This document shows positions 26,323 to 43,354 of a stretch of DNA of 48,138 nucleotides, piece by piece. Origin of the DNA: an uncultured Bacilli bacterium (GTDB lineage: Bacteria; Bacillota_I; Bacilli_A; RF39; UBA660); the NCBI GenBank assembly GCA_944371955.1, contig CALVYB010000003.1, forward strand, positions 1 through 48,138, written 5' to 3'. A program made the position numbers and the translations under genes. Position 1 is the stretch's first letter; each line of letters opens with the position of its first letter. The notes beneath the pieces were generated by a model. It searched no databases and was not told the origin of the DNA. It saw nothing but the letters and a program-made list of their open reading frames with translations.

Positions 26323-27089
26323 TGGAGGTAAAAATGATATACGTAAATCATGTATCTATGAAATTCAATTTAGGAATTGAAAAAGGATTTTCAATTAAGC
26401 AAGCATTTGTAAACTTTTTTGATCCTAAAATTAGAAAGAAAAAAACAGAAAAAAAATATTTTATGGCATTAAATGATGTTAATTTTCATATAGAGCCAGG
26501 AGAAGTAGTGGGATTGATTGGTTCAAATGGAGCGGGAAAATCTACATTGCTAAAGGTTGTAAGCGGTGTATTGAAACCGACGAAAGGAAATGTTCAAGTA
26601 AATGGGGCTATATCGCCAATGATTGAATTGGGTGCAGGATTCGATCAAGACTTAACTGCAAGAGAAAATATTTATTTGAATGGGGCTATTTTAGGTTATT
26701 CAAAAAAATTATTAGATGACAAGTTTGAGGATATAGTAGAGTTTTCAGAATTAAGAGATTTCCTTGATGTACCTGTAAAAAATTTTTCATCAGGAATGGT
26801 TGCAAAGTTAGCTTTTTCTATTGCAACAATTGTAAATCCAGAAATACTAATAGTAGATGAAATTTTATCAGTAGGTGATATAAAATTTCAAGAAAAAAGC
26901 AAAAATAAGATGATGGAATTAATAAAAGGCGGAACAACGGTATTATACGTTTCTCATTCTATTGAAAGTATAAAAGAGCTTTGCACAAAAGTTATTTGGA
27001 TAGAACATGGGCAAATTGTAAAAATAGGCCCAACCCGAAAAATATGTGATGAATATTTTGAGGCCCAAATAGGAAGAGGAAAAAAATAA
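26322..27089 (+). CDS. wzt: Polysaccharide export ABC ATPase (Wzt/RgpD-like) without a C-terminal carbohydrate-binding domain
   Basis: Walker A GSNGAGKST, FSSGM, ILIVDE, VSH; 255 aa. Confidence 0.92.
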   Translation: MEVKMIYVNHVSMKFNLGIEKGFSIKQAFVNFFDPKIRKKKTEKKYFMALNDVNFHIEPGEVVGLIGSNGAGKSTLLKVVSGVLKPTKGNVQVNGAISPMIELGAGFDQDLTARENIYLNGAILGYSKKLLDDKFEDIVEFSELRDFLDVPVKNFSSGMVAKLAFSIATIVNPEILIVDEILSVGDIKFQEKSKNKMMELIKGGTTVLYVSHSIESIKELCTKVIWIEHGQIVKIGPTRKICDEYFEAQIGRGKK

Positions 27090-27144
27090 ACTGAAATAAA
27101 TAACAATCATAATTATCAGGGGTTGAATTGAGGAGGACAAGTAG

Positions 27145-28950
27145 ATGAAAAAGTATATTCATTATTGCTGGTTTGGGGAAAAACCACTGCCCAAACTTGC
27201 TAGAAAATGCATAGAGAGCTGGAAAAAATATTTACCAGATTATGAAATTATGCTTTGGAATGAGAAAAATACAAATTTAGATGAGTGTGTGTTTATAAAG
27301 GAAGCATATGAAAATAAAAAATGGGCTTTTGTAGCTGATTATGTAAGAACAAAAGCAATGTATGAATATGGAGGAATTTATTTTGATACTGATATGGAAA
27401 TTATAAAGCCAATCGACGACCTTTTGAATTCGGAAAATGGCTTTTTAGGGGTTGAAGATTCACATATGATTGCCTGTGGAGTGTGGTATGAACCTAAGCC
27501 TAAAAGTTATTTATCAAAAAAAATGCTTGAATTTTACAAAAGCCAAGAATATTTTGATATAGATAATATGTATAAAATAAGTATTCCAAGAATAATAAGC
27601 AGTATTTTAAATGACTTTGATTCTTCCAATTTTGAAACGCAAAAATTAAAACATCATGAAATAATATATAAAAGAGAATACTTTTATCCATTATCATATA
27701 ATCATCAATATAATATTTTTACAGATAATACATGTATGATTCATTATTATGATGCCAGTTGGACACCGAAATGGGAACAAAGGGAAAACAGGATGTTCAG
27801 AATTTTTGGTAAAGAAAGAGGAAAAAAAATAATAGCAATAGCTATTAAATTAAAAAGAGTTGTTAGAAAAGCAGTGAAACTTGCTATATACCCATTGTAT
27901 AAATTCCATAAAAGAAGGAACCTTATTACTAAAGACTATATAAATAATACAAAAGATTCAATTAATAGAATAAAAAAGACGAAATATGATTATATTGCTT
28001 TTTACAATCCAGATTGGCTTGGAGTATCCAATGCAACAATTGAATTGTTTGAAAATTCTTCTCCAATGAAAGAAATATATAGAAACAGCGATATAAATAA
28101 AGTTGCAAATAAAATTATTTCTTCAAATTATAAGAAGGTAATATTTAGCGGTTTTTGTATTGGGTGGAAAAAACTAGCAGAAAAGCTAAATAATAATAAT
28201 ATCGTTGTAAAAACATATTTTCATGGAAGTCATTCTCAAGTATTAGAGCCATATGGTTGGGCTAGAAATATGGAAATATTTGATTTAACTAAAAGAGGAA
28301 TTGTTAAAAAGATGGCAATTTGTAAAGAAAGTTTAGTGAAATTTTATAAAACTTATGGTTGTAATACATACTTATTGACTAATAAAGTTGATGTAAAAAA
28401 ATATCCACATAAAAAAAGCGACAATAAAATAATAATAGGAATTTATGCAGCCAAAACTGAAGATTTTAGAAAAAATGCATTTGCTCAAATCGCAGCGGTA
28501 TCATTAATAAAAAATAAAAATGTAAAAATTGACATGGTCCCATTAAATAAAAAGGCCAAAAGTTTTGCTAAATTTTTAGGAGTGGAAATTGATGGAGAAA
28601 ATCATCCAATTCCAAGAGAAGATCTAATGAAAAGATTAGCAAACTGTGACATTTCATTATATGTTACATATTCAGAATGTGCTCCAATGACATCACTAGA
28701 AAGTTTTGCTCAAGATACAATATGTATCGTTGGTAATAACTGCCATTACTTTAAAAATGAAGAAATAGAAAAATATATTGTTGTAAATGAAGAGAATAAT
28801 CCTGAAGAAATTGCCAAAAAAATTGAATACGCATTAGATAATAAAGATATGGTATTAAAGTTGTATAAAGATTGGGAAATTAAAAATAAAGATATGTCAA
28901 AGAAGTTACTACAAGAATTTTTAGAGGATGGTGATAGCAGTGAGAAATAG
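27145..28950 (+). CDS. Two-domain glycosyltransferase: GT32 (DXD) + GT-B/GT4-like domain
   Basis: IHYCWFG, AFVADYVR, YGGIYFDTD, HYYDASW; C-terminal RKN...SECAPMTSLES (EX7E). Confidence 0.8.
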   Translation: MKKYIHYCWFGEKPLPKLARKCIESWKKYLPDYEIMLWNEKNTNLDECVFIKEAYENKKWAFVADYVRTKAMYEYGGIYFDTDMEIIKPIDDLLNSENGFLGVEDSHMIACGVWYEPKPKSYLSKKMLEFYKSQEYFDIDNMYKISIPRIISSILNDFDSSNFETQKLKHHEIIYKREYFYPLSYNHQYNIFTDNTCMIHYYDASWTPKWEQRENRMFRIFGKERGKKIIAIAIKLKRVVRKAVKLAIYPLYKFHKRRNLITKDYINNTKDSINRIKKTKYDYIAFYNPDWLGVSNATIELFENSSPMKEIYRNSDINKVANKIISSNYKKVIFSGFCIGWKKLAEKLNNNNIVVKTYFHGSHSQVLEPYGWARNMEIFDLTKRGIVKKMAICKESLVKFYKTYGCNTYLLTNKVDVKKYPHKKSDNKIIIGIYAAKTEDFRKNAFAQIAAVSLIKNKNVKIDMVPLNKKAKSFAKFLGVEIDGENHPIPREDLMKRLANCDISLYVTYSECAPMTSLESFAQDTICIVGNNCHYFKNEEIEKYIVVNEENNPEEIAKKIEYALDNKDMVLKLYKDWEIKNKDMSKKLLQEFLEDGDSSEK

Positions 28951-29860
28951 TAATAAGATATTAATTCTATTAAAAGATACTGATCACTTTATGAAGAAAA
29001 TATTAGAATATAATTTCAAAAAAGCAGATATAAAGTTAGTGCCAGAAAGTTATACACCGTTTGACAGAGAAAATCTTGCAAAGATAATTAATAAAAAATA
29101 TAAGCAAGTTATATTCTATGACTATTATGACCAATTTTATTTATTGTTACCTTTAATATCGAAAAAAGTAATAAAAAAATATATTATAAACAATGGTATA
29201 GCACTTTTAAGTAGTGATTATATTTTAAATAACATGATGCAACTGTTTGAATATAAAGGAAGAAATATGATTGACTATATTGCAACAACACGTTATGACA
29301 CATACGTGTCTATGAAGGATAAGATTGAATATATTCGTCTTGATTATAAAGTAAAATTGCATCCAAAAAATAATGATAGTATCGGAATACTAGGCCTATA
29401 TTATGCTGAATATTCCAATTTTTTCGTACAATTAAGTGCTGTTGCTATGTCAAAGATAAAAAAAGCAGTAGTGTTAGATGAAAATACGGTTGTAAAAAAA
29501 TTTGGTGAAGATTTTAATGTGGAAATTGAGAAAGAAATAGATTTTGAAAAGTTAATAGCTAAGAATAAAGTGAATTTAGATTGCTCGTTTAGTGAAGTCT
29601 CAATTATAGGTTTTCTAATAAGTATGGATGCTGGTATTCCATGTATAATAGGAAATACAAATTTGTTAGATAATGATGAAAAATTAAAAAAATTATTAGT
29701 TCTTAAGAGCGATGATGATGTTAATGAAATATACGAAAAAATAGAAGATGTATTAGCCAATAAAAAAGAAATAGAACAAAAATATGATTGCTGGAGAAAA
29801 AAATATTCAGACAATTCTAAAAAATCAATTGACAAATTTATCGAACTTGGAGATTGTTAA
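28940..29860 (+). CDS. Degenerate GT-B-fold protein, paralog of the upstream C-terminal domain
   Basis: Aligns by eye with the C-half of 27145-28950 (NFFVQLSAV vs NAFAQIAAV; GIPCIIGN vs DTICIVGN). GTG start 28940 after GGTGA. Confidence 0.65.
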   Translation: MRNSNKILILLKDTDHFMKKILEYNFKKADIKLVPESYTPFDRENLAKIINKKYKQVIFYDYYDQFYLLLPLISKKVIKKYIINNGIALLSSDYILNNMMQLFEYKGRNMIDYIATTRYDTYVSMKDKIEYIRLDYKVKLHPKNNDSIGILGLYYAEYSNFFVQLSAVAMSKIKKAVVLDENTVVKKFGEDFNVEIEKEIDFEKLIAKNKVNLDCSFSEVSIIGFLISMDAGIPCIIGNTNLLDNDEKLKKLLVLKSDDDVNEIYEKIEDVLANKKEIEQKYDCWRKKYSDNSKKSIDKFIELGDC

Positions 29861-29861
29861 T

Positions 29862-32800
29862 ATGAAAAAAATATCTATTATTATACCATGTTATGAAACA
29901 GAAGAGTATGTAGAAAAATGTATCGAAAGTCTTTTTGAACAAACATATAAAAATCTAGAAATTATAGCTGTAAATGATTGTTCTACAGGAAATATGCAAG
30001 AAATATTGGAAAAATTAAAAAGAAAGGATAAAAGACTTAAAATTATCAAAAATGAAGTTAATAAAGGAAAATTTCATAGTAGAATAATAGGTTCAAAAGA
30101 AATAACGGGAGATTATATTTCATTTTTAGATAGTGATGATTATGTTAACAAAGATTTTTACAGATTATTAGTAAATAATATAGAAGATAATGATAGTGAT
30201 ATAGTTATGTCTAATTTTGTTAGAGAAAATAAAGAAGAAAAAAATGTATATCCATTAATTTTTAATACAAATAATGCTGTGTACAATGGAAGAAAATTTT
30301 ATGATATGTTTTTTGAACAAACTGGCCGAAACATTAGATATCATTTGTTATGTACCAAATTAATAAAGGTGGATATTTGGAAAAAAGTAATAGAAAACGT
30401 AAGTAAAATAAAACCCAAAATTACTATGGCTGAAGATTTAGTATTTACTTCTATAGCTTTATTTCATGCTAAAAAAATATCATTTTGTGATAATGCGATA
30501 TATTATCATACAATTAATGAAATCCAAGTAACAAGCAACCAAAAAATTACAGTTTCAAAACTAAATAATAATATAAAAGATATTAACCACGTTTTTAATT
30601 TTATTAAAGAATTTTTAATAAAGAATAAAGTATATGAACAATATAAAGAAAATTATGAAATATGGAAATCATTTTATATATCCATACAAGTAAAGAATTA
30701 CAAAGAGTTAAAGAAAAAAAATAAAAATATCAAAAAATTAGAATTTGATTACGAAAATGATAAGAATATAAAAAAATTTTACCGGATAAAAGAAAGTGAT
30801 AAAAGCTGGGATAATTATTTAGAGTTAAAAACTCCATATGATGAAGCATTTAACCAAATAAAAGAAAAAATTATCAATCCAAATGTTAAAGTAGTAAGTT
30901 TTGATATGTTTGACACACTTGTAGCAAGACCATTTTTGGTGCCATTAGATATGTTTACATTACTCAATGATTATTTTATAAAATTATTTAATCCAATAGC
31001 TGTCATAGATTTTTCTAGAATCAGAGTCAAAGGTGAGGATGAACTTAGGAATTTAAATTATAAAATGGGTATCCAAGAAGTCTCTTTAGATGAAATATAT
31101 CAATACATATCAGATGCATATGATTTAGATATTGAAAAATTAGTTAAAATAAAAAAGAAAGAAATGGAGCTGGAATTACATTTTTGTAATAGGAGAAATT
31201 CTGGTTATGAGCTATATTTATTAGCAAAACAACTAAAAAAGCGTGTGATTGTAACTTCAGATATATATTTGCCAAGAAGTTTAATTGAAGCAATTTTGAA
31301 AAAAAATGGATATGAATTTGAAAAGATATATATATCTGCAGAACTTCGTAAAACTAAATCAAATGGTTCGTTATTTTCATATGTTATAAATCAAGAAGGT
31401 ACCAATAACATTCTACATATTGGTGATAATTATGAAAGCGATTATAAAAAACCATTAGAGTATAATATTGAATCTGCTAGGCTTATTAAAGCTACAGATG
31501 TTATGATGGGATATTCTGATAAAAATGTTAGGCATTGTGGGAATTTATATAAGCATTTTGTTTTATTTAACCAAGACCATATTCCTTATGAAGAAATAAT
31601 GGGAGTTAGATGTTCAATTGGGATGATAGCAAATAAGTATTTTGACAATCCATATAGACCATTTAATGCATACTCTGATTTTAATGGCGATCCATATTTT
31701 ATTGGCTATTATGCACTAGGAATGCAAACATTAGCAATTTGCAAATGGTTATTAGAAGATGCAAAACGAAATGGTATTCATTCTATATGTTTTATGGCAA
31801 GAGATGGATATTTACCTTATGAAGCAGCTAAAGTATATAAAGGAATAATAGGAAATTATGATGATATTCACTTAAATTATACATATGTTTCAAGAAAGGC
31901 TTTAATGCCATTGTTATTAAAAGATAAAAGTGGTATATCACTAATTGATACATACTTAAATGTAGATATGCTAACTCCAAGAGAGTTGATGAATCAATTT
32001 GAAAAAGTAATAAGCATTACTGCCAAAAATGAAAAAATAATTAATAAAGAATTTAAATTAGATAAAAAAATTAGGACAGTAAGAGAATTCAATGCGTGTT
32101 TATCGCTAATATATGATACTTGTTTTGATAAAGAAAAGTATAATAGATATTATAATATATGTAAAAAATATTTTGATAAAGAATTTAGCAAAAAATGTGC
32201 CACATTTGATATTGGTTATAGTGGAAAGCCAGAAGCTATTATATCTACAATAATTAACAAGCCCATAAGAACTTATTTTATACATACCAATAATTCGTCA
32301 GCTTATAATAATTTAAGAAATTGTAAATCTGATTTATGTACTTTTTATGAATATAAACCAACGTTAACTGGAACAACAAGAGAATTATTTATTTCATATG
32401 ACGGTCCTTCCTGTATAGGATATTATGAAGACGGAGATGAAATAAAGCCACAATTAAAGGATTCAGATAAATATAATTACTTCAATAAAAGAATGATTCA
32501 ATTAATCCAACAAGGAGCATTAGACTTTGTAGAGGATTTTTGTAACAGATTTAAAGAGAATATAGAAAACATTGATTTAAACAAATATTATATGTCTATC
32601 CCATTAGAGTATTACTATCATTATGCAGAAATGGAAGACAGATTACCAACTAAGAATCTACTATTTGAAAATAATATAAATGATTATATTGAAATAAACG
32701 ATTATATATTTAAAAGATATGATGACTATGCAAAAGAGTACTCATTAGGATCAATTCCTAGAAAGCCAGAAGAAAATGAAATCAATTATTTGTTACCCAA

Positions 32801-32900
32801 AAATAGAATAAAAAGAATATTATACTATCTAATAAAGGATAGAGATGAGTTGAAAATAAAATGGAATAAATGGAAAGAGAGTCAAAAGAAAAACGGATAG
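29862..32900 (+). CDS. Three-domain enzyme: GT2 + HAD phosphatase + glycan phosphoribosyltransferase-like domain (putative ribofuranosyltransferase)
   Basis: GT2 IIIPCY/FLDSDD/AED; HAD VVSFDMFDT, TSD, K, HIGDNYESD; C-terminal FMARDG, YVSRKA, FDIGYSG. Start re-called at ATG 29862. Confidence 0.75.
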   Translation: MKKISIIIPCYETEEYVEKCIESLFEQTYKNLEIIAVNDCSTGNMQEILEKLKRKDKRLKIIKNEVNKGKFHSRIIGSKEITGDYISFLDSDDYVNKDFYRLLVNNIEDNDSDIVMSNFVRENKEEKNVYPLIFNTNNAVYNGRKFYDMFFEQTGRNIRYHLLCTKLIKVDIWKKVIENVSKIKPKITMAEDLVFTSIALFHAKKISFCDNAIYYHTINEIQVTSNQKITVSKLNNNIKDINHVFNFIKEFLIKNKVYEQYKENYEIWKSFYISIQVKNYKELKKKNKNIKKLEFDYENDKNIKKFYRIKESDKSWDNYLELKTPYDEAFNQIKEKIINPNVKVVSFDMFDTLVARPFLVPLDMFTLLNDYFIKLFNPIAVIDFSRIRVKGEDELRNLNYKMGIQEVSLDEIYQYISDAYDLDIEKLVKIKKKEMELELHFCNRRNSGYELYLLAKQLKKRVIVTSDIYLPRSLIEAILKKNGYEFEKIYISAELRKTKSNGSLFSYVINQEGTNNILHIGDNYESDYKKPLEYNIESARLIKATDVMMGYSDKNVRHCGNLYKHFVLFNQDHIPYEEIMGVRCSIGMIANKYFDNPYRPFNAYSDFNGDPYFIGYYALGMQTLAICKWLLEDAKRNGIHSICFMARDGYLPYEAAKVYKGIIGNYDDIHLNYTYVSRKALMPLLLKDKSGISLIDTYLNVDMLTPRELMNQFEKVISITAKNEKIINKEFKLDKKIRTVREFNACLSLIYDTCFDKEKYNRYYNICKKYFDKEFSKKCATFDIGYSGKPEAIISTIINKPIRTYFIHTNNSSAYNNLRNCKSDLCTFYEYKPTLTGTTRELFISYDGPSCIGYYEDGDEIKPQLKDSDKYNYFNKRMIQLIQQGALDFVEDFCNRFKENIENIDLNKYYMSIPLEYYYHYAEMEDRLPTKNLLFENNINDYIEINDYIFKRYDDYAKEYSLGSIPRKPEENEINYLLPKNRIKRILYYLIKDRDELKIKWNKWKESQKKNG

Positions 32901-33056
32901 CAAATACTATTAGAATATCAAAAATAGAAGTAATAATACAATGGTGATGCTATTAAAATCTTATACATAATGACAATAAATACCCAGTAATATAAATTAA
33001 GAGTAAAGAGAATAGAATTTTAGAAACTAAACATTTGAAGTATTAGAGGTGGTTTA

Positions 33057-34190
33057 ATGAATACAGAAAGGAATTCGAATTTAGAATTAATGAGAATTAT
33101 CTCAATGTTTTTTATAGTTTTAGGACATGTTATTTTATTTGGAAAACTATTAGAAACGGAGAATAAAGCTATATTGTTAATATATTATTTTATTGAGTTT
33201 ATACTTATAATTCACGTTAATTCATATGTTTTAGTTACTGGATATTTTCAATCAAAATCAAAACTCAAATTAAAAAAAATATGGTCTATTATTAGCTCCA
33301 GTTGGTTTTATAGAGTAATAATTATGGCTATATTTTTATCCTTGGGATTAATATCAATTGGAATAGGTCAAATAATTAAAGATATATTTCCAATAAGTAT
33401 AGATAATTACTGGTTTATAAAAGTATATATAATACTTTATCTCTTATCACCTTTTTTTAATAAATTGATAAAAGATTTAAATAAAGTTGAGTTTTTAAAA
33501 TTACTTATATTAGGTTTTATTATATTCTGTGTTACACCATATATTACAAATAATGAATTTTTTGAAAATTCGGGGTACACTTTATACAATTTTGTATATT
33601 TATATTTTTTAGGGGCATATTTAAATAAATATCCGCTGAATAAAAGTAAATATTTTAAAAAGATAGAAAAAAGGTCATTTAGAAATATAATGCTGTTTAT
33701 ATTTTTTTTCTGTGTTATTTTAAATTTTGTATTATTCTATGTTGCTCAGTATTTAATTCCAACAAATAACAGCATAGAAAACTATCTTCGCTCGATGATA
33801 TTAAATAATAAGATTGCATATAGCAATCCAATAATTATAATTCAAACAATAGCATATTTTCAAATATTTTTAACATTTGAATTTAAGTCAAAAATCATTA
33901 ATAAAATATCAGCGCTTACGCTGGGTATTTATTTTATCCATGAGAACAATTATATTAGAAACAAACTATATAATTGGTTAGGAGTAATTAATGGTAATCA
34001 TAATTCATTCAAATTTATAAGTTATGTATTTATAGTAGCAATATCGATATTTGTTGTATGTGCAATAATTGAATTTATAAGACAAATAATATTTAAAAAA
34101 ATCTCTAGGACAAACATTATAGTAAATTTAAAAAATAATGCTAAAACTAAATTAAAAGAAATAAAGATATGTTATAATATAAAAGCATAA
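33057..34190 (+). CDS. Acyltransferase family 3 (polysaccharide O-acyltransferase)
   Basis: RNSNLELMRIISMFFIVLGH, YVLVTGYF, YWF, GIYFIHE; about 10 TM. Confidence 0.9.
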   Translation: MNTERNSNLELMRIISMFFIVLGHVILFGKLLETENKAILLIYYFIEFILIIHVNSYVLVTGYFQSKSKLKLKKIWSIISSSWFYRVIIMAIFLSLGLISIGIGQIIKDIFPISIDNYWFIKVYIILYLLSPFFNKLIKDLNKVEFLKLLILGFIIFCVTPYITNNEFFENSGYTLYNFVYLYFLGAYLNKYPLNKSKYFKKIEKRSFRNIMLFIFFFCVILNFVLFYVAQYLIPTNNSIENYLRSMILNNKIAYSNPIIIIQTIAYFQIFLTFEFKSKIINKISALTLGIYFIHENNYIRNKLYNWLGVINGNHNSFKFISYVFIVAISIFVVCAIIEFIRQIIFKKISRTNIIVNLKNNAKTKLKEIKICYNIKA

Positions 34191-34222
34191 AACTAATATA
34201 CTTATTTCTAGGAGTGATTATA

Positions 34223-34930
34223 ATGATGAAAAAAATAGTTTTACTTTTAATAATTATCGTATTAGGATATCTTGTATTATATAATTTGAATAAAGAGAAT
34301 TTAATTGTAACTAATGAAGAAGTTAAATCCGAAACTGAACATATAAAAACAATACAAGATTTAAGAAAAATAGAAAATATTGTTTTTTTGGGAGATTCAA
34401 TTACAGAGATTTATCCCATAGAGGAAATATATGGTAACCTTCCAATAATAAAAAAGGGAATATCTGGATATACAACAGAAAATATTTTAGAAAATTTAGA
34501 AGAAATGGTTTACAAGTACAATCCTACAAAAATATTCTTGTTAATAGGTACAAATGATTATAAAGATGAATGTGATACTGATAAAATGGCAGAAGTCTTA
34601 AAAAACATAAAAGAAATAGTAAAAAGAATAAAAGAAAATAGAAAAAATGCCAAAATTTATATACAATCTATATATCCGGTAAATAGAAATATGGATAAAG
34701 CTATGGTAGCAAACAGAGAAAACGATATTATTATAAAAACAAACAGCCAATTAAAAAAATATTGTCAAGAAAACGATTTAACATATATCAATGTTTATGA
34801 TCAATTAACAGATGAAGCTGGAAATTTTGACCAAAAATATACCTACGACGGTTTACATCCAAATACAATGGGATACGCTAGAATTAGTAGAATTTTACTC
34901 CCATACATTTATAAAGGCTACACGATTTAA
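34223..34930 (+). CDS. Membrane-anchored SGNH/GDSL family esterase/acetyltransferase
   Basis: N-terminal TM; FLGDSIT, GISG, IGTND, DGLHPN. Start ATG 34223 after AGGAG. Confidence 0.88.
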   Translation: MMKKIVLLLIIIVLGYLVLYNLNKENLIVTNEEVKSETEHIKTIQDLRKIENIVFLGDSITEIYPIEEIYGNLPIIKKGISGYTTENILENLEEMVYKYNPTKIFLLIGTNDYKDECDTDKMAEVLKNIKEIVKRIKENRKNAKIYIQSIYPVNRNMDKAMVANRENDIIIKTNSQLKKYCQENDLTYINVYDQLTDEAGNFDQKYTYDGLHPNTMGYARISRILLPYIYKGYTI

Positions 34931-35325
34931 TTAAATATAATATCAAGAATGAAACATTAATGGAAAATTTTAATCATGAAGACAAATTTACTCTAAAGAT
35001 ATTTTTTGTATGCATGGATATACAAAAATAATCGGTTATGTATTTGCATATACAAAATGTTTAGAAGTTTATATTGATAGAAATTATAATTCAAAAGAAT
35101 AAAACAGATGAATCAAAAATGAAGATAGAAAACAATCCCTTTTATTTTTTACCTTTGTCCCACATAGCAAGGAAGAATATATTTAGGATGTTATAATAAA
35201 GTAACATTTGTCAGTTTAAAACTAAACCAGATATCTTAAGGAGAAAAATTGATTTTGGGATGTAACGAAGAAAAATAAATTTTATAGATTAAAGAAGAAC
35301 AGAAAATAGAGTGTATTTTATTACT

Positions 35326-35364
35326 AAAAGGATTTCTCAGTTTATTTTTATGAGAAATCCTTTT
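35326..35364. terminator. Intrinsic terminator
   Basis: 14-bp inverted repeat AAAAGGATTTCTCA...TGAGAAATCCTTTT abutting the stop of the minus-strand gene. Confidence 0.75.
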
Positions 35365-36963
35365 TTATTCACATTTTCCAAAATTAATGCAATTGTCGTA
35401 ATAAGTAGAATACTTTTTTAACTCTTGATCAATATAATCGTTACCATATTTTTCACTTAATGTTTTTTTATCGCTAAACAAATTTGTTCCAAGACCTAAT
35501 CGATTACCTTCGATTTTCACACCTAAAGAAGCTAGAGTAGTGGGGTAATAATCAAAAGTGGTAAAATCTCGATTACTGGTGTTGTTAGTTTCTACAGCAG
35601 AATTTAAATAAACATTATACACACGTCTTTCGTATCCCTCGGGTAATTTACCGAATGAAGTTGTATTCATACTCAAATGATCGCCAGCCAAAATAACCGT
35701 GGTATTATCATAGAACTCTTGCTCTTGAATCCAAGATATAAACTTCCCAAGTTGCATATCTGAACAGTAAATAGCATTTAAATAAGGATTACTAGAATAC
35801 TGAGGACAAAAACTACTTTCATACCCATCAGGCATATGACTATCTACAGTTAACATAGTAAAATTAAAAGGTTCATCCTCAGAACTTAAGTTTTTAAGTT
35901 CTTTCTTTACATACTCAAATAATTTTTCATCTTCATAACCCCAAAAAACATAATAATCATCCGAAATAATTCCGTCTTCTCTGGCTGTATATAAATCAAA
36001 AACTTGATAATTTCCATGGCCTTTATAATAAGTTCTTCTACCCCCAAACGATAAATCCGATCCTACCATAACAGATTGATGGTAACCTTCATCATCTAAA
36101 ATATCTCCAATAGCAATTGCTCCATTAACTAAGCCATTTTCATAATTAGCTTCTTGATTAGCATCGGCTGCAATAAATGGGGTTTTAATAGGAATCCCAG
36201 CAGTAGCAGCAACCATGCCACCCATAGTCCAACTTGCACCATATGGCATATGAGCTCCTCCGATTTTGTCTGTATTAGAAAAATTAATGTTATCTTGAGC
36301 TAATTTTGTAAGATTGGGAATATAATTATAGGAATATCCTCCGCCATTTTTATAATCAGCATAAGTAGATTCCATCGATTCTAAAAAGATGTATATTAAA
36401 TTTCTCTTTTTCTTAGGGAACTCTAGCTTAACATCTGCTGGGTTCACATATTCTTCTTCAAAGAAAGTAGAGCTTTTTTTATTATCCTCAATATATTCAT
36501 TAATATATAATTTGTCCATTGCGTAAACAACAGAATCAGTCAAAGTACAGATTGGGATAATACAAGCTATCAAGAAAATAAAAATTACAATATTAAAATT
36601 CATATAACACTGTTTTTTAAATATACTAAAGTGTAATTGAATTTTACTATTCCTAAAAATAAATTTATAAGCCAGATAAATAATCATAAAAATTACCAAC
36701 ATAATAATAGTGGTTTGTAACGGAGGATAGATATTAGATTCAAAGAAATCATCTAAAACGCCCTTACTAGCAGTAGTGACAGAAGTACCTAAAGTATATA
36801 AAATTTCATCAAATGATGAAAAACTATAATTCTTAACCGCCCAATTTGTTCCAAGACGTAAAGCCATAGAAAGAAAAATAGCTAAGAAAAATAGTATAAC
36901 AAAAAGGAGACTAACGCTTCCTTTTAGAATTTTTACTATAACTTTTAGAACTTTTTTTAACAT
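35365..36963 (-). CDS. LTA synthase / phosphoglycerol transferase family (sulfatase fold)
   Basis: 3 TM; RNLIYIFLESME, WTMGG (nucleophile Thr), WGYED, TVDSH, GDH. Confidence 0.85.
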   Translation of the reverse strand: MLKKVLKVIVKILKGSVSLLFVILFFLAIFLSMALRLGTNWAVKNYSFSSFDEILYTLGTSVTTASKGVLDDFFESNIYPPLQTTIIMLVIFMIIYLAYKFIFRNSKIQLHFSIFKKQCYMNFNIVIFIFLIACIIPICTLTDSVVYAMDKLYINEYIEDNKKSSTFFEEEYVNPADVKLEFPKKKRNLIYIFLESMESTYADYKNGGGYSYNYIPNLTKLAQDNINFSNTDKIGGAHMPYGASWTMGGMVAATAGIPIKTPFIAADANQEANYENGLVNGAIAIGDILDDEGYHQSVMVGSDLSFGGRRTYYKGHGNYQVFDLYTAREDGIISDDYYVFWGYEDEKLFEYVKKELKNLSSEDEPFNFTMLTVDSHMPDGYESSFCPQYSSNPYLNAIYCSDMQLGKFISWIQEQEFYDNTTVILAGDHLSMNTTSFGKLPEGYERRVYNVYLNSAVETNNTSNRDFTTFDYYPTTLASLGVKIEGNRLGLGTNLFSDKKTLSEKYGNDYIDQELKKYSTYYDNCINFGKCE

Positions 36964-38373: not shown

Positions 38374-39171
38374 ATGAAAAAAGAGAGTAAAAAGCAAAAA
38401 AGACAATTGAAAATTAATATAGCAGTATATTTGATATTAAGATTTTTAGTTATCCTATGCATGGTAGAACAAGCTTTGAAAGGAAATTGGCATAGTGTAG
38501 CTTTATGCTTTTTAACCCTAATATTATTTACGCTTCCAACAGTAGCATCAAGAAAATTTAAAGTAAATTTGCCAACAACACTAGAGATTATTGTGTATCT
38601 ATTTATATTTGCTGCGGAAATTTTAGGGGAAATTCAGAATTTTTATGGAGTATTTAAACACTGGGATACTATGCTACATACGCTAAATGGCTTTTTATCT
38701 GCTGCGGTAGGATTCTCATTAATCGATATTTTAAACAGAACAGAAAGATTTCATATCAAAATGACTCCACTATTTGTAGCATTGGTTGCTTTCTGCTTCT
38801 CTATGACAATAGGTGTATTGTGGGAGTTCTTTGAATTTGGAGCAGATCGATATTTTAATTTAGATATGCAAAAAGATAGAATTGTAAATCAAATTTCATC
38901 TGTAGAATTAAATAAAAAGAATAAAAATGACCCAGTAATGATAAAAGATATTAATAAAACAGTTATTTATAGTAGCGATAATCAAAAAACAATCATTGAA
39001 GATGGTTATTTAGATATTGGAATTATTGATACCATGAAAGACTTAATAGTTAATTTCATAGGAGCAATTGTATTTTCTATGTTAGGATTTTTATATATTA
39101 AGGATCGCGATGAATATAAATTTATTGAAAGATTCCTACCTGTCATGAAAAAATTTAAAGAGGAAAGTTAA
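38374..39171 (+). CDS. Conserved membrane protein (DUF2238-like)
   Basis: About 6 TM; WDTMLH, GVLWEFFEF, DTMKDL motifs. Confidence 0.7.
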   Translation: MKKESKKQKRQLKINIAVYLILRFLVILCMVEQALKGNWHSVALCFLTLILFTLPTVASRKFKVNLPTTLEIIVYLFIFAAEILGEIQNFYGVFKHWDTMLHTLNGFLSAAVGFSLIDILNRTERFHIKMTPLFVALVAFCFSMTIGVLWEFFEFGADRYFNLDMQKDRIVNQISSVELNKKNKNDPVMIKDINKTVIYSSDNQKTIIEDGYLDIGIIDTMKDLIVNFIGAIVFSMLGFLYIKDRDEYKFIERFLPVMKKFKEES

Positions 39172-39208
39172 AGATTAAAAACAGAAAATGATATTCTAAT
39201 TAAAATAG

Positions 39209-39245
39209 AAAATATTAGTGAAAACAAAGCACTAATATTTTTTTG
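39209..39245 (+). terminator. Intrinsic terminator insulating the spoIIA promoter
   Basis: AAAATATTAGTG...CACTAATATTTT followed by a T run. Confidence 0.7.
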
Positions 39246-39249
39246 TTTT

Positions 39250-39282
39250 TGTCGAACGAAAGATTTGTCATATTTTGTCGAA
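39250..39282 (+). promoter_or_regulatory. Spo0A boxes upstream of the spoIIA-like operon
   Basis: TGTCGAA at 39250-39256 and 39276-39282; degenerate TGTCATA at 39266-39272, 10 bp before the second box. Confidence 0.75.
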
Positions 39283-39333
39283 ACACTGGAAAATTTTTAT
39301 TAGATGATTTATAGTGCTAAAAGAGGTGAAGAC

Positions 39334-39672
39334 ATGTTAACAGTATCACTACAAATAAATAGAGGAATTATGTTTATGAGATTGGAGGGAGAACTAACCA
39401 CGCAAAACTTTCATAAAGTAGCAGAAGAAATAAATTATTTACTGTACAAGCAAGGAATTTTAACCTATGTTTTCAATTTAGAAGCAGTAAAAAAAATAGA
39501 TAAAAATATTTTTGGTAGTATTCAAAATAAACTGACAGAAATATTTTTAAAATGTGGTAGTGTTGCTTTCTGTGGAATATCAGAGACATTTCAAAAAATG
39601 ATAGGAGAACGAAAAAACGAGTTGTTTTATGTAAGTAAAGAACAAGAAGTATTTCAATATATCAGTATATAA
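39334..39672 (+). CDS. spoIIAA: STAS-domain anti-anti-sigma-like protein (SpoIIAA-like, phosphoacceptor lost)
   Basis: MRLEGEL, VFNLEAVKKID, CGSVAFCGIS; 112 aa; directly before the sigF-like gene. Start ATG 39334 after GAGGTG. Confidence 0.75.
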   Translation: MLTVSLQINRGIMFMRLEGELTTQNFHKVAEEINYLLYKQGILTYVFNLEAVKKIDKNIFGSIQNKLTEIFLKCGSVAFCGISETFQKMIGERKNELFYVSKEQEVFQYISI

Positions 39673-39683
39673 AAGGAGAAATT

Positions 39684-40319
39684 ATGGACAGCATATTGGA
39701 ATATGAAGCATTAATCTATAAAATAATTGCAAGATATAGAAGTTTTGATAAAGAAGACTTATACCAAGTAGCTATGATTGGACTAATGAACGCCTTAAAG
39801 AATTATAATCCTAATGCTAATGCAAAATTTTCAACATATGCATATTATTATATTGTAGGAGAAATCAATACTTATATTTCTGCCAGCAGTCCTTTAAAAA
39901 TAAGTAGAGATTTGTTGCGTTTGAATAAAAGTTTGGAACATGCTAAAGAAGTTTTAGCCCAAAGATTGGCTAGAGAACCAACAACAGAAGAGTTAGCAAT
40001 ATTTTTAGAAACTCCCACAGAAAAAATAGAAGAGGCCTTAATAGCCGCTAGGCGGGTAGAGAGTTTAGACTGTGCTTATGATGATGAATCAGGAAGTTTA
40101 TATAATTGCTTCGGACAAGAAGAAACTCAAATGACAGATGAATTTTTAGATCTAAAAAATGCGATTCAAAATTTACCAAGAGAGGAACAACAATTGATTG
40201 TTGCGAGATATTATGATGGATTAACCCAACAAGAAACGAGTCAAACACTTGGTATGTCACAAGTACAAGTATCAAGAAGAGAAAATAAAATATTACAAAA
40301 ATTAAAGACTACTTTATAA
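39684..40319 (+). CDS. sigF: SigF-like sporulation sigma factor, N-terminally short
   Basis: EDLYQV..IGL, KFSTYA...I.GEI, LKISR, REPT.EELA, RYY..LTQ.E....LGMSQVQVSR.E.KIL; lies between spoIIAA and spoVA. Confidence 0.82.
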   Translation: MDSILEYEALIYKIIARYRSFDKEDLYQVAMIGLMNALKNYNPNANAKFSTYAYYYIVGEINTYISASSPLKISRDLLRLNKSLEHAKEVLAQRLAREPTTEELAIFLETPTEKIEEALIAARRVESLDCAYDDESGSLYNCFGQEETQMTDEFLDLKNAIQNLPREEQQLIVARYYDGLTQQETSQTLGMSQVQVSRRENKILQKLKTTL

Positions 40320-40463
40320 AAGAAGTTAAAAAGAAGAAAGATTAAAGTATGCAATCCCGTTAACAGCAATTATTACATATATAGCATAATTAAAGTGATA
40401 GCTTTAAAAAAAAGTCAAATACCAGCAATTTATTAAAAGAAAGTGTTTTTTGCTTTCTTTTTT

Positions 40464-40507: not shown

Positions 40508-40951
40508 ATGACACAAGAAAAATACGAAAAGATTGCCCAACAACATAAAGCACCAATTCCTAAACTTAAAAATGCCATCACTTCATTTTTTGTAGGAGGA
40601 TTGATTGGAATGATTGGTGAAGCGGTGATTGAATTATTGTGTATTTGGTTGCATATTTCTAGGAACAATGCTGGGACTATTATGATAGTTACAATGATCT
40701 TCATTGCTTCACTTGCCACTGCATTAGGTTTTTTTGATAAATTAGTAACCAAATTTAAATGTGGGCTTCTAATACCGATTACTGGGTTTGCTCATTCTAT
40801 GACTAGTGCAGCGTTAGATTATAAAAAGGAAGGTCCAATTTACGGAATAGGATCAAATATTTTTAAATTAGCAGGATCAGTAATTTTATATGGCATAGTA
40901 GCAGCATGGTTTTTTGGAATGATTCGTTACTTACTAGGGGGAAGAATATGA
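40508..40951 (+). CDS. spoVAC: Stage V sporulation protein AC
   Basis: FFVGGLIG, G..IPITGFAHSMTSAA, EG...GIGSNIFKLAGSVILYG. Confidence 0.92.
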   Translation: MTQEKYEKIAQQHKAPIPKLKNAITSFFVGGLIGMIGEAVIELLCIWLHISRNNAGTIMIVTMIFIASLATALGFFDKLVTKFKCGLLIPITGFAHSMTSAALDYKKEGPIYGIGSNIFKLAGSVILYGIVAAWFFGMIRYLLGGRI

Positions 40952-41940
40952 CATTTACTTATAATGATGTATATATTAAAGATACTGCGACGATTGCCGG
41001 TCCTTATGAGAAAAAAGGTCCACTAAAAAAATACTTTGATAAAACATTTGATGATTTATATTATGGAGAAGACTCTTTTGAAAAAGCCGAAATTAAATCA
41101 GTAAAAGAAAGTTTAAAACTGCTACATAAAAAAGTTGGATTAACAAGAAAAGAAGTAGATGTAATTTTAGGAGGAGACTTACAAAATCAAATTGCCGCTA
41201 CCACTTATGGAACCTATAACTATTCTAAATGTTTTCTAGGTTTGTATGGTGCTTGTTCTACATCGGTTGAAGGAATGATTATAGGCAGTGTTTTAATCGA
41301 TTCTAAAAAAGTGAAAAACGCTATTGTAACGGTTTCATCTCATAACATGTCAGCAGAAAAACAATTTAGAAACCCAACAGAATATGGTGCTCCAAAACCA
41401 AATTCTGCTACATTCACTGCAACTGGAAGTGCTTCTTTATTACTTACAAAAGAAAAAACAGATATCAAAGTGGAATCTTCTACAATTGGACAAATTACGG
41501 ATTTAAATCAAAATAATCCCAATGATATGGGAAAAGTAATGGCACCAGCTGCTATAGATACAATTAAAAGACATCTAAAAGATTTAAATAGAACTCCTGA
41601 TTATTATGATTTGATTGTAACCGGCGATTTAGGCCTATATGGAAAAGAAATATTAATGGATTATATGCTAGAAGAATATAATATAGATTTAAAAAATAAT
41701 TATAATGATTGTGGAGTTATGCTTTATGATTTAAAAAAACAAAAACAATGCTTAGCAGGAGGAAGTGGCCCCGTTTGTAGTGCTTTAGTATCATTTAGCT
41801 ATATCTTTCATGAAATGAAAAAGAAAAATCTAAAAAAAGTATTAATTGTTGCAACAGGAGCATTATTTTCTCCAACCATGGTTTATCAAAAACAAAATAT
41901 TTATTCAATAGCCAATGCAATTAGTCTGGAGGTAATTTAA
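40948..41940 (+). CDS. spoVAD: Stage V sporulation protein AD
   Basis: GP.E..GPL, FEKAE, GGDLQNQ, GLYGACST, SAEKQFR.P.EYG, MG.VMAPAA.DT, TGDLG, DCG, AGGSG, TGALFSP; ATGA overlap with spoVAC. Confidence 0.95.
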   Translation: MTFTYNDVYIKDTATIAGPYEKKGPLKKYFDKTFDDLYYGEDSFEKAEIKSVKESLKLLHKKVGLTRKEVDVILGGDLQNQIAATTYGTYNYSKCFLGLYGACSTSVEGMIIGSVLIDSKKVKNAIVTVSSHNMSAEKQFRNPTEYGAPKPNSATFTATGSASLLLTKEKTDIKVESSTIGQITDLNQNNPNDMGKVMAPAAIDTIKRHLKDLNRTPDYYDLIVTGDLGLYGKEILMDYMLEEYNIDLKNNYNDCGVMLYDLKKQKQCLAGGSGPVCSALVSFSYIFHEMKKKNLKKVLIVATGALFSPTMVYQKQNIYSIANAISLEVI

Positions 41941-42290
41941 TGTTACTTATAAATTCATTCATATTTTGTGGAATAATTTGTATGATTGCTCAAATTATAT
42001 TAGATAATACGAAATTAACCCCTGGTCATGTTACTAGTATGTTTGTAGTAATTGGTGCTTTCCTTGACTCTTTTAGTTTTTATGATAAGCTCATCAAAGT
42101 AGTAGGAGGGGGAGCACTCCTACCTATTACCAGTTTTGGGCATTCTTTAATTCATGGTGCTTTGGCAAGAGCAAATCAATATGGAATACTAGGTATTTTA
42201 ATGGGAATGTTTGATTTAACTGCCACTGGTATAACAGCCGCTATCATTTTTTCATTTGTATTAACTCTAATATTTAAACCAAAAAATTAA
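41940..42290 (+). CDS. spoVAE: Stage V sporulation protein AE (SpoVAEb-type)
   Basis: GIICMIAQ..LD.TKLTP.HV, GGGALLPITSFGH, C-terminal FKPK. Confidence 0.92.
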   Translation: MLLINSFIFCGIICMIAQIILDNTKLTPGHVTSMFVVIGAFLDSFSFYDKLIKVVGGGALLPITSFGHSLIHGALARANQYGILGILMGMFDLTATGITAAIIFSFVLTLIFKPKN

Positions 42291-43011: not shown

Positions 43012-43317
43012 TTAATATTGATTAGAAGAAAGAGAGATAATTAAATCCATATTATCATCTTTTGCCATAATATTTTTATGATACTCTCCACAAGTTCTAC
43101 AACGATAAACTATTTTATAAGTATCTCTAAACTTTTCAATACCAATAGGATTTAAAATTCCTAGACAAGTATTTTGTCTATCTCCAGGCATGATATCTAC
43201 ATGTTTAGAACAAAGACAAAAAGGGCAATGGTCTCTTGCACTATATTTTAAAACAGAAACCTTTTTGCCACAGTTTTCACAAATGAATTCTTCATCCCTC
43301 ATAGTAAATTGTTTCAT
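43012..43317 (-). CDS. RNHCP-domain zinc-binding protein
   Basis: FICENCG, RDHCPFCLCSKHVD..PGDR...C, CRTCG. Start re-called at 43317 (MKQF) after RBS GGTGA. Confidence 0.85.
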   Translation of the reverse strand: MKQFTMRDEEFICENCGKKVSVLKYSARDHCPFCLCSKHVDIMPGDRQNTCLGILNPIGIEKFRDTYKIVYRCRTCGEYHKNIMAKDDNMDLIISLSSNQY

Positions 43318-43354
43318 AACATCACCATCTGTTGTTATTATAACAGGAAACAAA

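What the first reader, a model, noticed from the sequence alone, without database searches (positions are those of the whole stretch)
39250..40319. spoIIA operon apparently without the partner switch: no spoIIAB and a non-phosphorylatable SpoIIAA
Seen: the spoIIAA-like stop (39672) is 11 bp from the sigF-like ATG (39684), with an RBS in the gap, so there is no room for spoIIAB or a remnant of it. The STAS protein has I-D-K-N-I-F-G (39496-39516) where SpoIIAA has M-D-S-S-G-L-G, so the phosphoacceptor (Ser58 in B. subtilis) is Lys. GELDHH has also become GELTTQ. Established: spoIIAA-spoIIAB-sigF is a near-invariant operon in endospore formers, and SpoIIAB kinase / SpoIIE phosphatase cycling on that Ser confines SigF activity to the forespore. 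Inference: kinase and phosphosite were lost together while both ORFs, the Spo0A boxes and spoVA stayed intact. This points to a rewired, phosphorylation-independent control of the first forespore sigma, for example with the STAS protein binding SigF directly or sensing a ligand.
Basis: partly seen in the sequence, partly recalled or inferred. Interest (0 to 1): 0.85.

Follow-up and report, generated by a model that had tools for sequence, protein, structure and literature searches.

The report
Sigma-F operon without its kinase switch
In this small-genome gut bacterium and in every sampled relative in its order, the first spore-specific sigma factor sits next to a SpoIIAA-like protein that has lost its phosphorylation site, and the kinase and phosphatase that normally switch it on are missing, so this textbook switch must work differently here.

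Summary

**The locus**
- A 112-aa STAS protein runs from the likely start at 39334 to 39672. An 11-nt gap carrying an RBS follows, then a 211-aa sigF orthologue (39684-40319), then spoVAC-AD-AE.
- The column that is the phospho-serine in canonical relatives (MDSSG) holds Lys here (IDKNIFG).

**What is missing and what remains**
- The assembly holds one STAS gene. It has no small SpoIIAB-type GHKL protein and no SpoIIE.
- It does hold Spo0A, SigE, SigG, SigK, SpoIIR, SpoIIGA and SpoIVA.
- This is not an assembly gap. In 201 sampled genomes of the order, all at least 90% complete, SpoIIAB was found in 0 and a SpoIIE-type PP2C domain in 0. Spo0A was found in 179 and the STAS gene in 153.
- Wherever I looked, the STAS gene almost always lies directly upstream of sigF.

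**Selection**
- Only 6 of 54 STAS sequences keep a Ser at the site.
- Both genes are under purifying selection (median dN/dS 0.20 for STAS, 0.13 for sigF).

**Lineage and prior work**
- Named relatives place the lineage in RF39 (Candidatus Faecimonas).
- Field et al. 2024 already report that spoIIAB and spoIIE are reduced or absent in RF39. In the passages I read they do not mention the retained, non-phosphorylatable SpoIIAA next to sigF.

**Mechanism**
- It is unresolved. The complex prediction gave no answer.
- One genus keeps sigF without the STAS gene.

The parts
39250..39256 (+). Spo0A-box-like TGTCGAA (distal, -84 from ATG 39334)
   Evidence: Exact match. A box at -84/-85 is present in 10 of the 19 same-genus upstream regions with enough flank. 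That TGTCGAA is the 0A-box consensus is recalled.
39276..39282 (+). Spo0A-box-like TGTCGAA (proximal, -58)
   Evidence: Exact match. Kept at -58/-59 in 17 of the 19 same-genus upstream regions with enough flank.
39310..39315 (+). -10-like TATAGT
   Evidence: Consensus scan TGGAAA-17-TATAGT. TATAGT or TATATT is conserved across the genus alignment. It lies downstream of ATG 39304, which argues for 39334 as the start.
39334..39672 (+). spoIIAA-like STAS gene, 112 aa (the longest ORF starts at 39304)
   Evidence: Pfam STAS 32.3 bits. A profile of 50 orthologues hits SpoIIAA chains best in the PDB (E 9e-22, 80 bits; next family 41 bits). AF2 model pLDDT 91.2, with SpoIIAA as the top Foldseek matches at TM about 0.8. 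Median dN/dS 0.20.
39496..39516 (+). Degenerate phosphorylation loop I-D-K-N-I-F-G; Lys (39502-39504) stands in the phospho-Ser column
   Evidence: Aligned with MDSSG[IL]G of four canonical relatives. Ser is found in this column in 6 of the 54 STAS sequences of the order that I examined.
39673..39683 (+). 11-nt intergenic gap with RBS AAGGAG; no room for spoIIAB
   Evidence: Read directly from the sequence. The same direct STAS-to-sigma junction occurs in 20 of 20 same-genus loci.
39684..40319 (+). sigF orthologue, 211 aa, divergent and short at the N-terminus
   Evidence: Sigma70 regions 2, 3 and 4. Best NCBIfam equivalog is SigF, 153.4 bits and below the cut-off. Reciprocal best hit with a canonical SigF (38% identity, against 31% to the genome's own SigG). 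Median dN/dS 0.13.
40508..40951 (+). spoVAC
   Evidence: TIGR02838 151.3 bits; Pfam SpoVAC_SpoVAEB 104 bits.
40906..41940 (+). spoVAD
   Evidence: PF07451 405 bits; NF006160 416 bits, over the cut-off.
41940..42290 (+). spoVAE(B)
   Evidence: TIGR02839 142.6 bits, over the cut-off.

Best explanation
This is a reduced spoIIA operon (spoIIAA-like STAS gene plus sigF, followed by spoVAC-AD-AE) of an RF39-type small-genome gut bacterium.

**Shown**
- The anti-sigma kinase SpoIIAB and the SpoIIE-type phosphatase were not found in any sampled genome of the order.
- The phospho-acceptor of the STAS protein is not conserved.
- The STAS gene and sigF stay adjacent, intact and under purifying selection.
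- The rest of the early sporulation cascade is present: Spo0A, SpoIIR, SpoIIGA, pro-SigE, SigG, SigK and SpoIVA.

**Inferred**
- Sigma-F is made from a Spo0A-activated promoter and is not governed by the phosphorylation partner switch.
- The loss probably ran SpoIIE first, then SpoIIAB as a suppressor that freed sigma-F again. This rests on recalled B. subtilis genetics.

**Committed mechanism (about 0.35)**
- The STAS protein, made in fixed ratio with sigma-F from the coupled genes, now acts on sigma-F itself by phosphorylation-independent binding. It would hold or tune sigma-F until the forespore is formed.

Odds by layer: the descriptive core about 0.9; that the STAS protein is still functionally tied to sigma-F about 0.65; direct binding about 0.35.
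For: **Own genome**
- One STAS match.
- Only long histidine kinases match the SpoIIAB and HATPase_c_2 profiles, or a profile built from four related SpoIIAB proteins.
- No SpoIIE; the only PP2C is an Stp1-type phosphatase.

**Relatives**
- SpoIIAB is over the cut-off in 4 of 41 genomes, all from other families. It is found in 0 of the 25 genomes of the window's family.
- SpoIIE matches at E<=1e-5 occur in 6 of 41 genomes, none of them in the family.

**Order sample of 201 genomes, all at least 90% complete**
- SpoIIAB 0/201 at E<=1e-15.
- PF07228 0/201 at E<=1e-5.
- Spo0A 179/201.
- STAS 143/201 by Pfam and 153/201 by the lineage profile.

**Synteny**
- STAS lies directly before the sigma gene in 20 of 20 same-genus loci and in 4 of 5 loci from other genera.
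- In the 30 best order-wide loci, 29 have a full-length sigma directly downstream.

**Phospho-site**
- Ser occupies the site in 6 of 54 sequences. The residue varies even within the genus: K, Q, N, I, F, H, S.

**Selection and fold**
- dN/dS over 190 pairs each: median 0.20 for STAS and 0.13 for sigma; the closest informative pairs give 0.03-0.09.
- SpoIIAA fold and best sequence matches.

**Downstream pathway**
- SpoIIR, SpoIIGA and SpoIVA are present in 5 of 5 genomes checked.
- A forespore-type promoter lies upstream of spoIIR in 3 of 3 genomes (the consensus is recalled).
- Spo0A boxes are conserved upstream of the operon.
Against: - No result here shows that the STAS protein touches sigma-F.
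- One genus (5 of 5 genomes searched) has Spo0A and a sigF orthologue (208-226 bits) but no STAS gene. There the sigma gene follows a 362-376 aa signal-peptide protein instead. The STAS protein can therefore be dispensed with.
- One other genome (G021) has the STAS gene without a sigma gene beside it.
- No direct STAS-sigma binding surfaced in one search or in the passages of the STAS review that I read (PMC8256260).
- No member of the lineage is cultured as far as my searches show, so actual sporulation is unproven.
- G000 is 92.8% complete. Absence in this genome alone would be weak; the argument rests on the order-wide sample.
Confidence: 0.4

Rival explanations
1. The STAS protein is still an antagonist, but of an unrecognised anti-sigma-F factor that is not a GHKL kinase. 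That factor would be encoded elsewhere in the genome. The switch would be thrown by something other than phosphorylation, such as a ligand, proteolysis or localisation.
For: The STAS protein keeps the SpoIIAA fold and a nearly invariant Asp before the former phospho-site. In most genera outside this one it also keeps the D-x-x-G loop (34 of 34 Asp and 31 of 34 Gly). This would fit continued docking on a partner. Purifying selection also fits.
Against: No candidate was found. The SpoIIAB, HATPase_c_2 and relative-built SpoIIAB profiles hit only 343-767 aa histidine kinases. Gin gave 0 of 5 genomes. Fin gave 0 of 5 over the cut-off, with only weak hits inside proteins of about 475 aa. No conserved extra gene sits in the operon. 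Loss of an antagonist in genus g44 should lock sigma-F off unless the unknown factor was lost too.
Confidence: 0.25
2. The STAS protein now does something unrelated to sigma-F. It might, for example, bind the ATPase domain of a sporulation histidine kinase, or another target. It would stay next to sigF only because of inherited operon structure.
For: Sigma-F persists without the STAS gene in genus g44, and G021 has the STAS gene without an adjacent sigma gene. The best GHKL match to the SpoIIAB profile in the own genome and in the listed same-genus genomes is a histidine kinase, in most of them a 413-445 aa protein with several membrane spans.
Against: The junction with sigF is kept, with gaps of about -16 to +15 nt, in 29 of 30 order-wide loci and in 20 of 20 genus loci spanning many genera. 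That is a lot of conservation for an accident of history. Spo0A boxes drive both genes together.
Confidence: 0.15
3. The locus is a relic. Sporulation is decaying in this reduced-genome lineage, and the STAS-sigF pair is on its way out.
For: Genomes are small (0.6-2.1 Mb), and 22 of 201 lack Spo0A. G063 has an internally deleted sigma gene and no Spo0A match. About 26 Spo0A-positive genomes lack the STAS gene. Field et al. 2024 describe stepwise sporulation loss in these orders.
Against: Both ORFs are intact in 21 of 21 genus genomes, with dN/dS of 0.13-0.20. The promoter boxes are conserved. SpoIVA scores 693 bits, and SpoIIR, SpoIIGA, SigE, SigG, SigK and SpoVA are all intact.
Confidence: 0.1
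4. The finding is an artefact. spoIIAB and spoIIE would lie in the unassembled 7% of this 69-contig genome, or the contig would be mis-binned.
For: G000 is 92.8% complete and fragmented.
Against: The 11-nt junction leaves no room for spoIIAB at its usual place. The same architecture occurs in genomes of 7-10 contigs (G012, G014, G015). There were 0 of 201 hits across the order.
Confidence: 0.02

Closest known systems
The spoIIA operon (spoIIAA-spoIIAB-sigF) of Bacillus subtilis and other endospore formers, with SpoIIE
   Same: It has a SpoIIAA-fold STAS protein first and sigF last, with spoVA genes directly downstream. That B. subtilis has the same order is recalled. Spo0A boxes lie upstream. 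SpoIIR, SpoIIGA and pro-SigE are kept downstream.
   Different: The middle gene (the SpoIIAB anti-sigma kinase) and SpoIIE are missing order-wide. The phospho-Ser is not conserved. Both proteins score far below their equivalog cut-offs.
The RF39 sporulation gene set described by Field, Bowerman and Hugenholtz 2024 (PMC10868615)
   Same: It appears to be the same lineage, judged from named relatives (Candidatus Faecimonas = GTDB CAG-877, RF39). The paper states that spoIIAB and spoIIE are reduced or absent in RF39. [quoted passage not shown]
   Different: The paper is a presence/absence survey. In its main text 'spoIIAA' and 'sigF' occur 0 times. It does not mention the retained STAS gene, its lost phospho-site, its fusion-like junction with sigF or the selection on it.
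Canonical spoIIA loci in other families of the same class (G029, G030, G033, G038)
   Same: These are the closest relatives with a complete switch: STAS (113-131 aa), SpoIIAB (143-149 aa) and SigF (207-241 aa), plus SpoIIE-like proteins. SigF of G030 is the reciprocal best hit of the window's sigma.
   Different: They carry GELDHH (GELDDH in G030, GELDQK in G033) and MDSSG[IL]G, and SpoIIAB at 152-190 bits. The window's order has none of these.
Non-canonical STAS-domain-only proteins (SypA, RbaV, HmpV) reviewed in PMC8256260
   Same: They are single-domain STAS proteins whose output is not, or not known to be, release of a sigma factor from a kinase-type anti-sigma (passages read).
   Different: In the passages I read, HmpV is described as switched by phosphorylation from a partner kinase. 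Here no such kinase or phosphatase is found at all, and the gene is coupled to a sigma factor.

Membership tests
SpoIIAA (anti-sigma-F antagonist, TIGR02886) | STAS fold of the SpoIIAA type | tested here: met
   AF2 model pLDDT 91.2, pTM 0.85. The top Foldseek PDB hits are SpoIIAA chains 1thn_B, 1th8_B and 1tid_B at TM about 0.8. The profile of 50 orthologues hits SpoIIAA at E 9e-22.
SpoIIAA (anti-sigma-F antagonist, TIGR02886) | Score over the curated equivalog cut-off | tested here: not met
   32.9 bits against a cut-off of 114.75.
SpoIIAA (anti-sigma-F antagonist, TIGR02886) | Conserved phosphorylatable Ser in the D-S-S-G loop | tested here: not met
   Lys stands in that column here. Ser occurs in 6 of the 54 sequences of the order. 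All 4 canonical relatives have MDSSG.
SpoIIAA (anti-sigma-F antagonist, TIGR02886) | First gene of the operon that ends with sigF | tested here: met
   It lies directly upstream of the sigF orthologue, with spoVA downstream.
SpoIIAA (anti-sigma-F antagonist, TIGR02886) | Cognate SpoIIAB to antagonise | tested here: not met
   No SpoIIAB in the own genome. None in 0 of 201 order genomes.
Sporulation sigma factor SigF (TIGR02885) | Sigma-70 regions 2, 3 and 4, and closest to SigF among sigma families | tested here: met
   Pfam r2, r3 and r4. SigF is the best equivalog (153.4 bits, against 124.5 for SigG). Reciprocal best hit with a canonical SigF.
Sporulation sigma factor SigF (TIGR02885) | Score over the curated equivalog cut-off | tested here: not met
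   153.4 bits against 321.45. The profile is matched from position 21, so the N-terminus is short.
Sporulation sigma factor SigF (TIGR02885) | Directs early forespore genes such as spoIIR | tested here: inconclusive
   spoIIR is present (137.7 bits). It has a forespore-type promoter-like site (GAATA-18-CATTATA) that is conserved in G012, while in G014 the printed stretch ends upstream of that site. The consensus is recalled, and SigF and SigG sites cannot be told apart this way.
Partner-switching system (STAS + GHKL kinase/anti-sigma + PP2C phosphatase) | GHKL serine kinase / anti-sigma partner | tested here: not met
Partner-switching system (STAS + GHKL kinase/anti-sigma + PP2C phosphatase) | SpoIIE/RsbU-type PP2C phosphatase | tested here: not met
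   Own genome: only an Stp1-type PP2C. PF07228 in 0 of 201 genomes. TIGR02865 in 0 of 26 genomes of the order among the relatives.
Endospore formation | Spores actually formed | not testable with these tools
   Only gene content can be assessed: Spo0A, SigE/G/K, SpoIIR, SpoIIGA, SpoIVA and SpoVA are present. My searches turned up no cultured member and no spore observation.

The most novel reading that the evidence does not exclude
A whole order of gut bacteria would run the first compartment-specific step of endospore development without the SpoIIAA~P / SpoIIAB / SpoIIE switch. The surviving STAS protein would have become a one-protein, phosphorylation-independent regulator that binds sigma-F directly. 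That would be a STAS-sigma contact with no precedent in the literature I searched, and a natural minimal solution to forespore-specific activation.
Probability: 0.3. Interest if true: 0.85.

Novelty: new variant of a known kind. Interest (0 to 1): 0.62.

Why it matters
The SpoIIAA/SpoIIAB/SpoIIE switch is the textbook case of how two genetically identical sister cells come to express different genes. [quoted passage not shown]

Here a large, gut-abundant, uncultured order keeps sigma-F and its downstream signalling to sigma-E. It has discarded both enzymes of the switch, yet it keeps the third protein under selection with a site that cannot be used in the known way.

This makes a long-standing question testable: what is the minimum needed to confine sigma-F activity? 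It also gives the STAS fold a possible new mode of action. Finally, it bears on whether RF39 bacteria transmit between hosts as spores.

Tried and rejected
- **Complex prediction.** STAS (50-row alignment) with sigma-F (48-row alignment) scored 0.00 and gave 'no answer'. This is not evidence either way.
- **RNA evidence.** No RNA holder was listed for 39200-40400. I did not lay reads.
- **The search for related loci** with the 26-row STAS alignment failed because it had no conserved stretch. I repeated it with the single sigma protein.
- **Second canonical operon or relocated spoIIAB.** Rejected.
- **Known non-kinase modulators.** Gin was found in 0 of 5 genomes. Fin had only weak hits (16.5-18.2 bits) inside proteins of about 475 aa, so 0 of 5 over the cut-off.
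- **The 362-376 aa protein upstream of sigF in genus g44.** No Pfam family.
- **Literature.**
  - Searches found no paper describing a non-phosphorylatable SpoIIAA or sigF without spoIIAB, other than Field et al. 2024.
  - Wang et al. 2020 on RF39/RFN20 has no occurrence of 'sporulation', 'spore' or 'sigma'.
  - PMC11536998 mentions RF39 once, only in its methods.
- **Spo0A-box count.** Enrichment in the window is not significant on its own: 5 found against 2.3 expected, and 11 of 100 shuffles reach 5.
- **Not attempted.** Coevolution or mirror-tree analysis (too few pairs), and a class- or phylum-wide survey of other lineages that have Spo0A but lack SpoIIAB.
Full report
**What is at the locus**

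The window is contig C3 of a 1.125-Mb, 29% G+C assembly of 69 contigs, 92.8% complete. Between 39250 and 42290 the + strand carries the following features:
- two TGTCGAA boxes (39250-39256 and 39276-39282);
- a TATAGT (39310-39315);
- a STAS-domain ORF ending at 39672;
- an 11-nt gap with AAGGAG;
- a 211-aa sigma gene (39684-40319);
- spoVAC, spoVAD and spoVAE.

The one correction is the start codon. Orthologues share an 'ML' start that corresponds to ATG 39334. A strong RBS precedes it, and the conserved -10-like hexamer lies downstream of the alternative ATG at 39304. The protein is therefore probably 112 aa.

**Identity of the two proteins**

The STAS protein scores only 32.9 bits on the SpoIIAA equivalog, against a cut-off of 114.75. 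Other evidence places it with SpoIIAA:
- A profile of 50 orthologues finds SpoIIAA as by far the best solved relative (80 bits, E 9e-22; the next family scores 41 bits).
- A confident AF2 model (pLDDT 91.2) matches SpoIIAA chains best, at TM about 0.8.

The sigma has regions 2, 3 and 4. Its best equivalog is SigF, at 153 bits against a cut-off of 321. It is the reciprocal best hit of a canonical SigF from a related family (38% identity, against 31% to the genome's own SigG).

With spoVA directly downstream, the pair is the orthologue of spoIIAA and sigF. That B. subtilis has the same gene order is recalled.

**Is the switch really missing?**

In the own genome:
- There is exactly one STAS match.
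- The SpoIIAB equivalog, Pfam HATPase_c_2 and a profile I built from four related SpoIIAB proteins hit only five histidine kinases of 343-767 aa.
- The only PP2C is an Stp1-type phosphatase.
- The six sigma genes are SigA, SigE, SigG, SigK, a SigH-like sigma and this one. There is no second spoIIA operon.

An incomplete assembly could hide two genes, so I asked the relatives. Among 41 genomes, SpoIIAB passed its cut-off in four. All four belong to other families of the class, and there it sits between a STAS gene and sigF. None of the 25 genomes of the window's family has it, nor does the one genome of the sister family. SpoIIE-like matches show the same split.

A sample of 201 genomes of the order spans 99 genera, and all are at least 90% complete. 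It gave:

| Search | Genomes with a match |
|---|---|
| SpoIIAB, E<=1e-15 | 0/201 |
| SpoIIE-type PP2C domain (PF07228), E<=1e-5 | 0/201 |
| Spo0A | 179/201 |
| STAS, Pfam | 143/201 |
| STAS, lineage profile | 153/201 |

The loss is therefore ancestral to the order and not an artefact.

**Architecture and the phospho-site across the order**

The STAS gene is followed directly by the sigma gene in these loci:
- 20 of 20 same-genus loci.
- 4 of 5 loci from other genera among the relatives. The exception is G021, where a SAM-synthetase-like gene follows.
- 29 of the 30 best order-wide loci. The exception is G063, which has an internally deleted sigma and no Spo0A match.

All four canonical relatives have MDSSG[IL]G. 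In the column of the first Ser the window's genus shows K, Q, N, I, F, H and once S. Other genera mostly have I, L or M. Overall, Ser occurs in 6 of the 54 sequences examined.

The preceding Asp is nearly invariant. The Gly three residues on is kept outside this genus but lost within it. This genus is therefore the most derived.

**Are the genes alive?**

Nei-Gojobori estimates used 20 of the 21 genus sequences, giving 190 pairs for each gene. G020 was left out because its start is unclear.
- Median dN/dS is 0.20 for the STAS gene and 0.13 for sigF.
- The closest informative pairs give 0.03-0.09.
- A few distant STAS pairs reach 0.6-0.8, with implausibly low dS. I read these as saturation and A+T bias.

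Other signs that the pathway is alive:
- The Spo0A box at -58 is kept in 17 of 19 upstream regions, along with a terminator-like hairpin of the upstream gene and the -10-like hexamer.
- Downstream partners of sigma-F are present in 5 of 5 genomes checked: SpoIIR, SpoIIGA (next to sigE) and SpoIVA.
- spoIIR carries a conserved forespore-type promoter-like site (the consensus is recalled).

**Which lineage, and what is already known**

The nearest named records are Candidatus Faecimonas MAGs, at 73-80% sigma identity. That is the same range as the same-genus genomes. Gilroy et al. 2021 equate Faecimonas with GTDB CAG-877, in order RF39 (passage read).

[quoted passage not shown] They predict spores with markedly different regulation. 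They also note lineages that lack spoIIE but not spoIIAB.

In their main text 'spoIIAA' and 'sigF' do not occur. The gene absences are therefore already in print. I did not find the retained, non-phosphorylatable SpoIIAA coupled to sigF in print.

**Mechanism**

Shown: sigma-F here cannot be controlled by SpoIIAB/SpoIIE phosphorylation, yet selection keeps the STAS protein.

Inferred history (recalled B. subtilis genetics: loss of SpoIIE locks sigma-F off, and loss of SpoIIAB suppresses that): SpoIIE was lost first, then SpoIIAB. This would leave an orphan STAS protein that would be expected to decay unless it had another use.

My committed reading, at about 0.35, is direct and phosphorylation-independent action on sigma-F. 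It is favoured by the tight, order-wide coupling of the two genes.

Rival readings:
- an unrecognised, non-GHKL anti-sigma partner (0.25);
- a sigma-F-independent role (0.15);
- decay (0.1);
- artefact (0.02).

Evidence against an indispensable role:
- Genus g44 (5 of 5 genomes) keeps Spo0A, SigG and a sigF orthologue but has no STAS gene.
- Known small modulators were not found: Gin in 0 of 5 genomes, and Fin in 0 of 5 over the cut-off.

The single complex job gave no verdict, and no RNA run was listed.

**Verdict**

- It is a new variant of a known system. Its novelty is reduced by the 2024 survey, but it remains a natural experiment on a textbook switch.

Noticed in passing
L136-L140 (genomes G194, G190, G236, G131, G067 of genus g44): A sigF orthologue (214-218 aa, 208-226 bits) occurs with no STAS gene. 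It is preceded by a 302-376 aa protein (362-376 aa with a signal peptide in four of the five loci) that has no Pfam family in the two I scanned, and further upstream by spoVAE. This is a rearranged, STAS-less version of the locus.
   Followed up: partly
window 38374-39171 (+): A 265-aa protein with several membrane spans has no Pfam or NCBIfam match. It ends at a terminator-like hairpin just before the Spo0A boxes. A homologue lies directly upstream of the STAS gene in many same-genus loci but not all.
   Followed up: partly
G000 contig C26:10173-11414 (+) and counterparts in same-genus genomes: A histidine kinase of 413 aa (420-445 aa open frames in relatives) with several membrane spans is among the best GHKL matches to the SpoIIAB profile in the own genome and in most listed same-genus genomes. 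It may be the sporulation kinase, and it is an untested alternative target for the orphan STAS protein.
   Followed up: no
L118 (G063) and L046 (G021): G063 has a STAS gene followed by a sigma gene with an internal deletion (profile positions 48-134 missing) and no Spo0A match, which looks like decay. G021 has an intact STAS gene followed by a SAM-synthetase-like gene rather than a sigma gene.
   Followed up: partly
G000 contig C4, upstream of spoIIR (C4:14006-14524, - strand); L099: A site GAATA-18 nt-CATTATA (CACTATA in G012) lies about 20 nt upstream of the spoIIR RBS. It resembles forespore sigma-F/G promoters; the consensus is recalled.
   Followed up: partly
L053 (G025, sister family) and L133 (G050): These STAS proteins carry Glu in the phospho-Ser column (VDEYALK, LDEYGLK). 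An acidic residue there would mimic the phosphorylated state in a canonical SpoIIAA; that reading is recalled.
   Followed up: no
window 25510-36963: This is a cell-envelope gene cluster. It holds an ABC-2 transporter pair, a 601-aa two-domain glycosyltransferase, an acyltransferase_3, a GDSL lipase and an LtaS-type sulfatase-domain protein on the - strand. The glycosyltransferase has a DXD sugar-binding region and a weak 36-residue match to the TcdA/TcdB glycosyltransferase domain. It looks ordinary.
   Followed up: no
window 43012-43353 (-): A small RNHCP-domain zinc-ribbon protein (95 bits) lies between the spoVA genes and scpA/scpB.
   Followed up: no
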